DNA of 64,000 nt from Carcharhinus longimanus (Eukaryota). This document shows, piece after piece, positions 58,301 through 61,300 of this stretch. The stretch's first letter is position 1. Every line of letters begins with the position of its first letter. The position numbers are program-made. The stretch covers positions 53,313,614 through 53,377,613 of the forward strand of contig JASCQW010000081.1 in the NCBI GenBank assembly GCA_030264375.1. Reading direction: 5' to 3'.

Positions 58301-61300
58301 TCCTACACCAGTGAACTATCAGAGTGCTTTAAAAAATGAATGAGGGCAGTGTAATAAATGGCACATCTGGTGTATATAAATATAGAAAAATACCTTCTCA
58401 GGAATGCTTTTATTAAAACAAAATGTAAGCATGCCCACATGCTGGTAAATCTAGGCTGCGAGGCAAGACTATTTTTCATAGGTGTGCCTATATCAGCAGT
58501 TATTTCTCTAGATGTTCTTTTATTTCCATTTCCTAACATTTGTATGGAAAGTGAAATGCCTACTGATGTCAGTAATTGTTTGAATGCATCCATGAAATGT
58601 TATTCAAAGTGTCCTGATGCAAAGCACTTGATTCTTGAGTATAATGTGCGTCCTGGTATCCCATCCCTTGATGATAAGCATGTGCTTTTCTACTTTATTT
58701 AATTCCTTATGTTTTCAGTTTTTGGATAAAGCTTTTAAAGTACTGTACAATCGAACAGGGCATCTGATATCATTGTAAATATTAACCTGGCCTATCTGTG
58801 GTCTAGCAGTAATGGAGCTTTGATAAGTAACCATAACAGACATGATTTTTGGTTATGTATGCAATGCTTCAACATGGTCTTTCATTTTTTTTAAATGACA
58901 TATTTTAATAGATACTAGTGTCAGTCAGCCGAAACCTTTGCGAAGAGTCCGACTTTATCCACAAATGGGGAGAACTGTTGTCAGAGGACGACAGTTTGTT
59001 AGCCGTAGAGGTAAGGCCCTTTTTAATATGTATAACATTGGTTTGGGAAAAAAATTGGAATGCTTTATAAGGGGAAAGGTGAATACAAAGTAGGAATTTA
59101 GGCTAGAGACTGAAGACATGATCCAAGAGATGGATTTTAAGCTTTTATAAGCGTTTGTAAGTGGAACAAGGCAATGATTCAAGAAGGAATGTCAGACAGT
59201 TGAGTTTTGACAAAGACGTGCCTAATGAAGGGGGGGAGCAGGTGGTGACTGAGAGGAGACAGGCAGCAAGCAATAAAACCATTCATATTCAAGCTGTGCT
59301 ATAAGGTTGCACGTGATGACTTAGATTTGAAGAACCTTGAAATTAGTTCAAAGAGCCAGAGAATTTTGCAAGGATGATCATGGGATTCGAGATCTAGATT
59401 TAACAAATGAAAGGTGTGGGTCCTGATATGCTCCCAAGAAGGGAACTTGGGATAATTGAGTGAGCTTCATTTTTATAACATAATTTAATATCTGCAACAC
59501 AATATACTTTGTATTAAAAATGACAAAGTATGCAATTTTTGCTTCATTTTTTATTATACAGTATTTGTGATAACAGGAATGAGACAAGTTGAATTAGAAA
59601 TTGCTGTCTGCAATAGAAATCATCTATTTGAATAGTAACCCCAATCAATCAACTTTTGAAATGATCATATCTGTTTCAAAATGACTTGTTAAAAGTATTC
59701 AGAAAAACAATTTAGTTACATTCAAAGGACAAGGCTCTATTTTTACCTTGTTAGGAGAAAGCAAATGTACCTTTTTGAGTAAAAGCATTATGTATGATTA
59801 TATATAAAATAGAATGGGACTAGCTGAAGTGTATTCTTCCCTAGCCCCAAACCAAAATATGTTCCAAGCTGTCAGTGCCTGGTTTGTAGGACTCCTGGCT
59901 CTGTCTGCTGCGATTGAATTGATTATAGTGAATAGGCATTCGCATATAGGGAAGTTTGCACACTTCTAGTACTGCGTTTTAAATATTTGCTGTGCCTCTG
60001 ATTATCCTTCCTCTGTGTTTCTCATATTGAACGTTCTGAAGCAGAATTGTAATTCAAAAAGTTATGGCTTTAGTCACGGTCTAAATTCTGATTTGGTTTT
60101 ACAAGTCAAATTAGTTTTCATTTCGGTTGTAAACATTTATCTGGGCTCTGCAGGCATATTATTTTGCAGATGGAAAGAGGAAGTATGATTTACAAAGAAA
60201 ATTTGAAATTTTTTCTATCGGTATTCACCAACTTTACATTTAATGATTGGCATCTAAAAATGTTTTGAAGTAGCGGTATAGTTTTAGGTAGGCTGTTCCC
60301 AGAATTTCAGTTTATTATTTACATGTTTCTTATTTGTAGGTATGACGCATTCAATGGCAGGAAGAGGAATTAACAGAGGAAATCATAATTGACTGCTTTT
60401 ACCCATTGCTGCATATTGATTCTTGATTGTCTTGTCGCAATAGAACAAAAATTCTGAACTTTGAGCATTTGTGGGTATTTGTCACAGTGTAATCTTCCCA
60501 TTGAAAAATAAACTGATTTCCTTTTACATTGTGGTGAAGCTTGAATTTTTTCTTGGGAAGTTTTTCTCGTTGCATCCATACAAGTCCTTTGTTACGCTTC
60601 TTCTTGTATTAATGGCCTTCCGGTTAACAGGATCAATGCTGTAGTATTTATCTAAATGGAGAGGTGGGAAGTGAGGGGTCAAAAAAAGCAATTTTTGGTT
60701 TCACTTTAAATTCAATTAATGTTTCCCCTGCAGGTATTACAGATTCTTTCTTTCCCTCCTGTTCAACAAAGGTATTGCTTAGACTTTGGTTGTGTTGTTA
60801 TGTCAGTGACATGCCTAGACTGCTCGTTAATAAAGTGCTGACCCAGGCAACTTCAAGCATTTGAAGTGTTGTAAATGAGACTTCATAAATAGATAATAGG
60901 CAGGAGAAACAACTTGGTTTACATCAGCTCCTGTGGCAATTCATTTTTGTTAGTGCTGTATGCAGATTTTCCTTTCTATGTTCAATTGCAAATTTTTGCA
61001 CAGGAACTTTTGGGTTGTACAACCCATTAAGCCTGATCTGCTGGCCTGTTAAATCATTGCTGACCTGTACCTAAACTGTATTTATTGACCCTTGTCCCAT
61101 GGCTCTTTATACATTTACCCAATAAGCACCTATTGAACTGTCTTAAAATTTCAAACGTCCAGATTTTTGAAAGAGTTTTCGATTTTACTTCCTCTTAAAT
61201 GGCGAAAGTTGGTAATTATAATTTGAAAATTGTACTGAATTCATAACACTTTTGATCTCTGGAGTGGTAATGGAAGCCTGAGAAACATTTTTTTATTGTG

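What the first reader, a model, noticed from the sequence alone, without database searches (positions are those of the whole stretch)
60290..60860. Interlocked antisense 3' ends of TPR and PRG4: each gene's 3'-processing signals sit in the other's functional sequence
Seen: the TPR stop (60390-60392, +) and PRG4 stop (60524-60526, -) are only about 130 bp apart. The first TPR AATAAA (60507-60512) predicts cleavage around 60525-60540, over the last PRG4 codons, so its U/GU-rich downstream element is the antisense of PRG4 coding sequence. The first canonical PRG4 signal (TTTATT 60311-60316) lies in the T-rich 3' splice-site region of the last TPR intron, so PRG4 mRNA would cover the whole TPR terminal coding exon in antisense. 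A second TPR AATAAA (60829) would reciprocally cover the whole PRG4 terminal coding exon. Established: human PRG4 and TPR are tail-to-tail with overlapping 3' ends. Inference: the overlap dates to the jawed-vertebrate ancestor and may be locked in by dual-use sequence, coupling a housekeeping gene to a tissue-restricted gene through transcriptional interference or poly(A)-site choice.
Basis: partly seen in the sequence, partly recalled or inferred. Interest (0 to 1): 0.72.

Follow-up and report, generated by a model that had tools for sequence, protein, structure and literature searches.

The report
Overlapping tail ends of TPR and PRG4
Two neighbouring vertebrate genes, TPR and a PRG4-like gene, face each other so closely that their transcript ends must overlap, which is a common and already known type of gene arrangement.

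Summary
All coordinates check out. On the + strand, a frame-consistent terminal TPR exon (from 60340) stops at 60390-60392. On the - strand, a three-exon GT-AG chain stops at 60524-60526. 131 nt lie between the stops.

TPR identity is tool-supported: Pfam TPR_MLP1_2 scores above its cut-off. The PRG4 name rests on a non-significant best PDB hit (vitronectin hemopexin-like domain), published TPR-PRG4 synteny and my recall.

The TPR AATAAA at 60507 looks like a real poly(A) site. It has an upstream UGUA, a CA 15-16 nt downstream, and a GU/U-rich downstream element (60528-60572) matched by only 0.6% of + strand windows. That element is antisense to the last PRG4 codons.

The proposed PRG4 signal (60311-60316) is the first of 13 hexamer variants after the PRG4 stop. 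However, it has a poor downstream element and sits where TTTATT is expected by chance. An AATAAA at 59550-59555 looks better.

Either way, PRG4 mRNA should cover the TPR terminal coding exon, so an overlap of at least about 230 nt is nearly unavoidable.

Ancient origin, a "dual-use lock" and regulatory coupling are untested, because no vertebrate genomes or RNA data were available. This is an ordinary convergent overlapping gene pair, known in human. Interest is low to moderate.

The parts
6647..8133 (+). Two consecutive TPR coiled-coil exon ORFs (6647-6904 and 7948-8133) that identify the + strand gene
   Evidence: Pfam PF07926 TPR_MLP1_2: 42 bits (cut-off 36), E 1.1e-10, profile 36-91 of 129. 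The next ORF scores 28.7 bits (below the cut-off), E 1.5e-6, profile 104-129.
58911..59010 (+). TPR penultimate coding exon
   Evidence: Acceptor AG at 58909-58910 and donor GTAAGG from 59011. It ends with one base of a codon, which the two leading bases of the last exon complete.
59550..59555 (-). Alternative, better-looking PRG4 poly(A) hexamer, AATAAA, 969 nt past the PRG4 stop and inside the last TPR intron
   Evidence: 10 GU/U words, G+T 0.60, an upstream UGUA and a CA in range. It ranks 6 of 222 sites.
60311..60316 (-). First canonical hexamer (AATAAA) after the PRG4 stop. On the + strand it reads TTTATT, 24-29 nt before the TPR terminal exon.
   Evidence: It is the first of 13 hexamer variants, 208 nt from the stop. 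Its downstream zone is poor (2 words, G+T 0.38) and it ranks 136 of 222. TTTATT is found in 35% of equally T-rich windows.
60340..60392 (+). Coding part of the TPR terminal exon: 2 bases, 16 codons, and TGA at 60390-60392
   Evidence: (ORF 60288..60392), with the acceptor ...TTATTTGTAG before 60340.
60393..60523 (.). Inter-stop stretch of 131 nt. It is 3' UTR of both genes.
   Evidence: No significant RNA structure on either strand (z -0.19 and -0.48). No Rfam family.
60488..60491 (+). UGUA upstream of the TPR proximal hexamer
60507..60512 (+). TPR proximal poly(A) hexamer, AATAAA. It lies 115 nt after the TPR stop and 12 nt from the PRG4 stop, within the PRG4 3' UTR in antisense.
   Evidence: It ranks 2 of 222 by an ad-hoc context score.
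60524..60651 (-). Coding part of the PRG4-like terminal exon. The stop TAA is at 60526..60524 and the acceptor AG at 60653..60652.
   Evidence: ORF 60524..60700. It is in phase with exon 62049..61924.
60527..60528 (+). CA, the likely TPR cleavage site, 15-16 nt after the hexamer. It falls inside the last sense codon of the - strand gene.
   Evidence: This is inference from the usual geometry of vertebrate poly(A) sites.
60528..60572 (+). GU/U-rich downstream element of the TPR proximal site, antisense to the last ~15 codons of the - strand gene
   Evidence: 14 GU/U words and G+T 0.756. These values are reached by 0.635% and 0.337% of 61,713 + strand 45-nt windows.
60652..61923 (-). Last intron of the PRG4-like gene
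   Evidence: Donor GT at 61923..61922 and acceptor AG at 60653..60652.
60829..60834 (+). Second TPR AATAAA, inside the last PRG4 intron
   Evidence: Its context is middling: 6 words, G+T 0.51, rank 57 of 222.
61924..62049 (-). Penultimate PRG4-like exon, with a hemopexin-blade-like motif
   Evidence: The best PDB hit is the vitronectin hemopexin-like domain 6o5e_A, E 0.45 and 0.25, not significant.
63115..63258 (-). Third-from-last PRG4-like exon
   Evidence: acceptor AG at 63260..63259, donor GT at 63114..63113, phase-consistent. No Pfam or PDB support.

Best explanation
This is a real convergent (tail-to-tail) pair of protein-coding genes in a non-human vertebrate scaffold: TPR on the + strand and a PRG4-like hemopexin-type gene on the - strand. 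Their stop codons are only 131 nt apart, so their mature 3' ends must overlap.

TPR most likely ends at a strong proximal poly(A) site. That site has UGUA at 60488, AAUAAA at 60507, CA at 60527-8 and a GU/U-rich element at 60528-60572. The hexamer lies in the PRG4 3' UTR and the downstream element lies in the last ~15 PRG4 codons. A weaker distal site at 60829 is possible.

PRG4 mRNA has no usable hexamer before 60316. It therefore reads antisense through the whole TPR 3' UTR and terminal coding exon and ends in the last TPR intron, at 60316 or further on (60244 or 59555). The shared stretch is at least about 230-250 nt.

I take the overlap to be a passive consequence of very close, old adjacency. 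Each strand's signals act only on its own transcript, and the arrangement is tolerated because the overlapped parts are mostly UTR and a short C-terminal tail.

What is shown: the geometry, the splice phases and the quality of the signals. What is inferred: which sites are used, and that nothing regulatory is going on.
For: - Coordinates and splice phases.
- TPR identity: Pfam TPR_MLP1_2 above its cut-off, with the next exon collinear in the profile.
- The 60507 site ranks 2 of 222 AATAAA/ATTAAA sites.
- Its downstream zone has the highest GU/U word count of the 222 sites. It is matched by 0.635% of the 61,713 + strand windows for word count and 0.337% for G+T.
- None of 13 hexamer variants occurs on the - strand between 60523 and 60317.
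- The focal region is unique sequence: 0 of 39 self-matches lie beyond 57,947, and there are no tandem repeats.
- No RNA family and no significant fold, so nothing other than the two genes needs explaining.
- TPR-PRG4 neighbourhood is shared by zebrafish tprb and human TPR (passage, PMC8548687).
- Human PRG4 is on + and TPR on - at one place (Table 1, PMC2741462).
- Convergent pairs dominate conserved sense-antisense pairs: 120 of 129 human-mouse pairs with the same pattern (PMC1524920).
Against: - There are no RNA data, so no cleavage site is shown.
- The PRG4 name has no significant tool support: Pfam found nothing in 6 of 6 exon queries, PDB E values are 0.25-0.45, and the Atlas returned noise below 0.9.
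- My poly(A) score is ad hoc. It favours the T-rich + strand, where 13 of the top 15 sites lie.
- A passive overlap is a default reading, not a result. The exceptionally good TPR downstream element inside a coding tail could equally reflect selection on dual-use sequence.
- The species is unknown to me, so the age of the arrangement cannot be read from this window.
Confidence: 0.65

Rival explanations
1. This is the reader's model: regulatory coupling. Because the signals are interlocked, PRG4 transcription in joint or cartilage cells would interfere with TPR 3' processing, shifting TPR from the proximal site to 60829 or beyond. Alternatively, constant TPR transcription would damp PRG4, through polymerase collision or RNA duplexes.
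For: - The TPR cleavage site and downstream element lie inside the PRG4 terminal exon.
- A second TPR AATAAA exists at 60829, so a choice between sites is possible.
- There is precedent in THRA/NR1D1, where an element antisense to the partner's 3' UTR regulates splicing (abstract, PMC4569393).
Against: - Nothing in the sequence requires coupling.
- Most overlapping pairs have no shown regulation. [quoted passage not shown]
- No paper in the library links PRG4 and TPR through antisense or polyadenylation. In some searches, the only relevant hit is the 2002 listing.
- There is no significant RNA structure.
Confidence: 0.12
2. This is the dual-use lock. The PRG4 poly(A) hexamer at 60316..60311 would be the site actually used. 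At the same time it would be part of the branch-point and pyrimidine-tract region of the last TPR intron. Neither gene could then move its end without damaging the other, which would preserve the overlap since early jawed vertebrates.
For: - It is the first of 13 hexamer variants after the PRG4 stop.
- It has a CA in range and one upstream UGUA.
- TTTATT at 60311-60316 lies 24-29 nt before the exon, and I note that it fits the loose branch-point pattern yUnAy (my reading).
Against: - The downstream zone is poor: 2 words and G+T 0.38. It ranks 136 of 222.
- The chance of an AATAAA within 208 nt on this strand is 0.21.
- TTTATT occurs in 380 of 1,073 equally T-rich windows and in 5 of 73 acceptor-like sites.
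- The AATAAA at 59555 has a much better context.
- No cross-species comparison was possible.
Confidence: 0.15
3. There is no real second gene. The - strand exons would be a decayed or misread hemopexin-type remnant, or a vitronectin-like gene rather than PRG4, and the 'overlap' would be just the TPR 3' UTR.
For: There is no significant family hit for any of the three exons.
Against: - Three exons have canonical GT-AG borders and matching phases, open frames and a strong pyrimidine tract before the last exon.
- Vitronectin's hemopexin-like domain is the top PDB hit twice, on the blade motif.
- PRG4 is the published neighbour of TPR in human and zebrafish.
- The exon sequences agree with my recollection of the human PRG4 C-terminal region. 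This is recall only and was not tested.
Confidence: 0.05

Closest known systems
Human TPR / PRG4 locus (chromosome 1q31)
   Same: It is the same gene pair on opposite strands. Table 1 of PMC2741462 puts PRG4 on + and TPR on - at one place. Both names occur in Fahey et al. 2002, a paper on 56 overlapping human RefSeq transcript pairs (search listing only). From recall, human annotation shows their 3' ends overlapping.
   Different: I could not read the 2002 passage or compare any human sequence. It is therefore unknown whether the 131-nt stop spacing, the TPR site inside the PRG4 coding end, or the hexamer in the splice region are shared. From recall only, the C-terminal tail after the last cysteine is longer here than in human. 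If so, the coding overlap with the TPR downstream element would be lineage-specific.
THRA (TR-alpha2) / NR1D1 (Rev-erb-alpha) convergent overlap
   Same: It is a 3'-3' antisense overlap of two protein-coding genes, in which sequence antisense to the partner's 3' UTR has a processing role (abstract, PMC4569393).
   Different: There the overlap involves an alternative last exon, arose stepwise within mammals, and has experimental support. Here there is no sign of alternative splicing and no experiment.
Convergent sense-antisense pairs conserved among vertebrates (e.g. MSH6/FBXO11, POLR2B/IGFBP7, RBM13/C8orf41)
   Same: They are tail-to-tail protein-coding pairs that keep the same overlap pattern from mammals to chicken (PMC1524920 passages).
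   Different: Conservation of those pairs was shown with transcripts from several species. Here it is a single genome with predicted ends. Exon-exon overlaps shared by human and fish were few in 2007: 1 with fugu and 5 with zebrafish (Table 2, PMC2151771).
ACAT2 / TCP1 overlap
   Same: [quoted passage not shown]
   Different: That case is described as arising near the origin of mammals. The age of the present arrangement is not known from my data.

Membership tests
Nucleoprotein TPR (TPR/Mlp1/Mlp2) | TPR_MLP1_2 domain (Pfam PF07926) within a long coiled-coil protein | tested here: met
   42 bits against a cut-off of 36 on ORF 6647-6904. The next exon matches profile positions 104-129 at 28.7 bits, and PF25785 scores 16.4 bits. 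Many further coiled-coil exon ORFs lie on the + strand.
Nucleoprotein TPR (TPR/Mlp1/Mlp2) | The terminal exon at 60340-60392 is the true C-terminus of TPR | tested here: inconclusive
   It is phase-consistent with exon 58911-59010 and has canonical splice sites. No Pfam family covers it: 0 families for 58899-59090. Agreement with the human C-terminus is recall only.
PRG4 / lubricin (hemopexin-like C-terminal domain) | Hemopexin repeats detectable by profile or by a solved relative | tested here: inconclusive
   Only exon-by-exon searches were run. Pfam found 0 families in 6 of 6 queries. PDB's best hit was the vitronectin hemopexin-like domain at E 0.45 and 0.25. The other two exons gave no relevant hit. 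The joined spliced model was not searched.
PRG4 / lubricin (hemopexin-like C-terminal domain) | Somatomedin-B domains and a large mucin-like exon upstream | not testable with these tools
   The window ends at 64000, about 740 nt upstream of the third-from-last exon. The rest of the gene is outside it.
PRG4 / lubricin (hemopexin-like C-terminal domain) | Neighbour of TPR, in conserved synteny | tested here: met
   The gene is tail to tail with TPR in the window. PRG4 is listed as the neighbour of TPR/tprb in human and zebrafish (PMC8548687).
Convergent (tail-to-tail) cis-natural antisense gene pair | Two genes on opposite strands with facing 3' ends | tested here: met
Convergent (tail-to-tail) cis-natural antisense gene pair | Mature transcripts share complementary sequence | not testable with these tools
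   There are no transcript data. It is predicted from the signals: the TPR site is at 60507, and no - strand hexamer lies before 60316.
Canonical vertebrate poly(A) site | AAUAAA or AUUAAA, a CA 10-30 nt downstream, a GU/U-rich downstream element and an upstream UGUA | tested here: met
   This row is for 60507 (+). All four features are present, and it ranks 2 of 222.
Canonical vertebrate poly(A) site | The same four features, for the PRG4 candidate at 60316 (-) | tested here: not met
   The hexamer, a CA and one UGUA are present. The downstream zone has only 2 GU/U words and G+T 0.38, and the site ranks 136 of 222.

The most novel reading that the evidence does not exclude
The TPR-PRG4 3' interlock is as old as jawed vertebrates and is held in place by truly dual-use sequence. 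The strongest downstream poly(A) element in this 64-kb window would be selected both as TPR processing signal and as the coding tail of PRG4. A + strand-specific 15-bp stem brackets the TPR hexamer and the PRG4 stop. In cells that turn PRG4 on, TPR 3'-end choice or TPR dosage would change, linking a nuclear-pore basket protein to the joint-lubrication programme.
Probability: 0.08. Interest if true: 0.55.

Novelty: new member of a known kind. Interest (0 to 1): 0.25.

Why it matters
In the 2007 survey there were 1 shared with fugu and 5 with zebrafish (PMC2151771). It would also offer a clean case for asking whether shared signals hold neighbouring genes together.

As it stands, it is a well-formed example of a common arrangement. 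It is useful for annotating both 3' ends in this genome. It also warns that short reads or knock-down reagents aimed at either 3' UTR will hit both genes.

Tried and rejected
- Pfam on the PRG4-like exons: three as whole ORFs and three trimmed to the exon. It returned 0 families in 6 of 6 queries.
- PDB sequence search on those exons gave only non-significant hits or none.
- PDB search on TPR exon ORF 6647-6904 gave 0 hits.
- ESM Atlas on exon 62047..61925: the best score was 0.87, to bacterial GIY-YIG clusters. I treated this as noise.
- Rfam over the whole window: 0 families.
- tRNA scan: 0. Tandem repeats in 58000-64000: 0.
- Repeats in 59000-62500: only short two-copy families, which I took as chance.
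- Folding of the inter-stop region and of both signal regions: z -0.19, -0.48, +2.13 and -0.76.
- Folding of the stem around the TPR hexamer: -11.5 kcal/mol, z -0.69, with 55 of 200 shuffles as good. The stem is absent from the 141-nt fold. I rejected it as evidence of structure.
- Papers opened that did not bear on the overlap:
  - PMC4951194: 'tpr' 0 and 'shark' 0 occurrences.
  - PMC11940178: the TPR hits are misspelt TRPV.
  - PMC11856278: lubricin appears only as background.
  - The 2026 bioRxiv preprint: TPR means true positive rate.
- I considered and rejected that the window is human. It is a gap-rich draft scaffold with 15 N runs, and the protein ends differ from what I recall of the human ones.
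Full report
**1. What is in the sequence**

Every coordinate in the finding is correct:
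- TGA at 60390-60392 on the + strand.
- TTA (TAA on the - strand) at 60524-60526.
- AATAAA at 60507-60512 and 60829-60834 on +.
- TTTATT (AATAAA on -) at 60311-60316.

131 nt (60393-60523) lie between the two stops.

The + strand stop closes a short terminal exon that starts at 60340, after the acceptor ...TTATTTGTAG. Its two leading bases complete a codon begun by the single last base of exon 58911-59010, which has a GTAAGG donor.

On the - strand, three exons have GT-AG borders and matching phases: 63258..63115, 62049..61924, and 60651 down to the stop. The last - strand intron is therefore 60652-61923.

**2. Which genes**

The + strand gene is TPR.
- ORF 6647-6904 matches Pfam TPR_MLP1_2 at 42 bits (cut-off 36), profile positions 36-91.
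- The next exon ORF, 7948-8133, matches positions 104-129 at 28.7 bits. That is below the cut-off, but it is collinear with the first hit.
- Many more coiled-coil exon ORFs follow on the same strand.

The - strand gene could not be named by a significant hit.
- I searched it exon by exon only. The joined spliced model was not searched, so domain-level recognition was not attempted.
- Pfam gave nothing in 6 of 6 exon queries.
- The best PDB hit of the penultimate exon was the hemopexin-like domain of vitronectin, on the blade motif. It came first of 4 hits at E 0.45 and first of 2 at E 0.25.
- The other two exons gave nothing relevant.
- The Atlas gave noise.

The PRG4 name therefore rests on three things:
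- The weak hemopexin lead above.
- Published synteny. PRG4 is named among the neighbours shared by zebrafish tprb and human TPR (passage read, PMC8548687). Human PRG4 is on + and TPR on - at one place (Table 1, PMC2741462).
- My recollection of the human PRG4 C-terminal region, which was not tested.

I consider the name very likely right.

I do not take the window for human. It is a draft scaffold with 15 N runs and interspersed repeats. I could not determine the species.

**3. Are the signals more than chance?**

AATAAA is frequent here. There are 123 on both strands, against 82.6 expected: 46 on + and 77 on -.

From a random position, the chance of meeting the next AATAAA is:
- 0.078 within 115 nt on +.
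- 0.25 within 437 nt on +.
- 0.21 within 208 nt on -.

So the hexamers alone say little. Context separates them.

I scored all 222 AATAAA/ATTAAA sites of the window that are free of N. The score used GU/U-rich words and G+T content 15-60 nt downstream, UGUA in the 60 nt upstream, and a CA in cleavage range. This score is ad hoc and favours the T-rich + strand.

| Site | Rank of 222 |
|---|---|
| 60507 (+) | 2 |
| 60829 (+) | 57 |
| 60316 (-) | 136 |
| ATTAAA 60244 (-) | 195.5 |

The zone 60528-60572 holds 14 GU/U words at G+T 0.756. Only 0.635% and 0.337% of the 61,713 + strand 45-nt windows reach these values.

With UGUA at 60488-60491 and a CA at 60527-60528, the 60507 site has every feature of a strong vertebrate poly(A) site. 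Its hexamer lies 12 nt from the PRG4 stop. Its likely cleavage point is in the last PRG4 sense codon. Its downstream element is antisense to the last ~15 PRG4 codons.

**4. The PRG4 side is weaker**

60316..60311 is indeed the first of 13 common hexamer variants after the PRG4 stop. None lies between 60523 and 60317. But several points count against it as a specific signal:
- Its downstream zone has 2 GU/U words and G+T 0.38, below the strand mean.
- It sits in a T-rich acceptor region, where its complement is expected. TTTATT is present in 380 of 1,073 equally T-rich 40-nt windows, against 2,522 of 61,793 windows overall, and in 5 of 73 acceptor-like sites.
- An AATAAA at 59555..59550, 969 nt past the stop, has a far better context: 10 words, G+T 0.60, UGUA, CA, rank 6.

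Whichever is used, PRG4 mRNA should cross the whole TPR 3' UTR and terminal coding exon in antisense. With the first canonical sites on both strands, the shared stretch is about 230-250 nt.

A no-overlap outcome would require two unlikely things together. TPR would have to stop at the weak AATAGA at 60439, and PRG4 would need a 3' UTR under about 60 nt made with no known hexamer. I consider that very unlikely.

**5. Anything else there?**

- No Rfam family in the window.
- No tRNA and no tandem repeats.
- None of the 39 self-matches of the window lies beyond 57,947.
- No significant fold of the inter-stop region on either strand (z -0.19 and -0.48).

One curiosity remains: an uninterrupted 15-bp stem on the + strand, counting G-U pairs. 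It pairs 60478-60492 with 60524-60538 and holds the TPR hexamer in its 31-nt loop.
- It is one of 7 such stems on the + strand, against a mean of 0.55 in 20 block shuffles. It is not a stem on the - strand.
- Energetically it is unremarkable: -11.5 kcal/mol, z -0.69, with 55 of 200 shuffles as good. It vanishes in a 141-nt context.

**6. How it most likely works**

Two polymerases transcribe towards each other, and each strand carries its own processing signals. TPR is cleaved just inside the PRG4 terminal exon. PRG4 is cleaved inside the last TPR intron. Their mature 3' ends are complementary over a few hundred bases.

I judge the arrangement to be a passive result of tight, old adjacency (confidence 0.65 for the whole statement). 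The rivals are:
- Regulatory coupling through interference or poly(A) choice: 0.12.
- A lock through the hexamer in the splice region: 0.15.
- No real second gene: 0.05.

None of the regulatory or evolutionary claims could be tested. The open collections hold no vertebrate genomes, and no RNA data exist here.

**7. Comparison with what is known**

Convergent overlapping protein-coding pairs are a known and common class.
- 56 such pairs were found in early RefSeq, with about 1000 estimated for the genome (abstract, PMC2447278).
- 13.4% of human genes were involved in overlaps in a 2007 survey (Table 1, PMC2151771).
- Convergent pairs dominate those conserved between human and mouse, at 120 of 129 (PMC1524920).
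- Overlaps shared by human and fish were few in 2007: 23 with fugu and 17 with zebrafish, of which 1 and 5 were exon-exon.

The search listing shows PRG4 and TPR twice each in the 2002 paper. The body text was not available to read, so I cannot quote it. Supplementary lists of the other surveys were closed and may also name the pair.

Four searches found no paper that discusses regulation between the two genes.

A lamprey prg4 homologue exists (PMC10161429), so the gene itself predates jawed vertebrates. Its position relative to TPR there is unknown to me.

**8. Verdict**

It is a new member of a known kind. Interest is 0.25.

Noticed in passing
window 60478-60492 paired with 60524-60538 (+): An uninterrupted 15-bp stem, counting 4 G-U pairs, brackets the TPR AATAAA in a 31-nt loop. 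Its 3' arm covers the PRG4 stop and the TPR cleavage site. It is one of 7 such stems on the + strand (shuffles average 0.55) and is not a stem on the - strand. Its energy is not significant (z -0.69) and it is absent from a 141-nt fold.
   Followed up: yes
window 1061-1137, 10215-10289, 32188-32265, 46556-46663, 50152-50237, 52716-52826: Copies of one short repeat family (about 70-110 nt, 88-97% alike) lie directly beside, or within 25 nt of, 6 of the 15 N runs. The gaps seem to sit at one kind of repeat. The gaps were left as they are.
   Followed up: partly
window 2977-3310, 3317-3583, 4176-4442, 10736-10871, 36920-37226, 48910-49207, 51283-51466: These are seven diverged copies (66-78% alike, both orientations) of an interspersed repeat of about 300 nt inside TPR introns. 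It has no Rfam or tRNA match. It looks like a SINE-type element, but the family was not identified.
   Followed up: partly
window 8825-9761 (+), related copy 17395-17695: Long open frames of 146 and 163 aa lie in a TPR intron with no Pfam match. Part of the region (9424-9743) is repeated in inverted orientation at 17395-17695, 69% alike. This is probably a decayed retroelement. From recall it resembles Penelope-like elements, but that was not verified.
   Followed up: partly
whole window: AATAAA is over-represented: 123 against 82.6 expected, with 0 of 100 shuffles reaching 123. It is also asymmetric: 46 on + and 77 on -. That fits a T-rich sense strand in the TPR introns. It also raises the chance level of any antisense 'signal' found in TPR introns.
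   Followed up: yes
window 60527-60574 (-): The - strand frame runs 16 codons past its last cysteine before the stop. From recall only, the human protein ends sooner after that cysteine. If so, the coding overlap with the TPR downstream element is a lineage feature rather than an ancestral one.
   Followed up: no
window 57834-57897: A 17-19-bp near-perfect hairpin with a 26-nt loop is seen on both strands, about 130 nt before the N run at 58029-58128 in a TPR intron.
   Followed up: no
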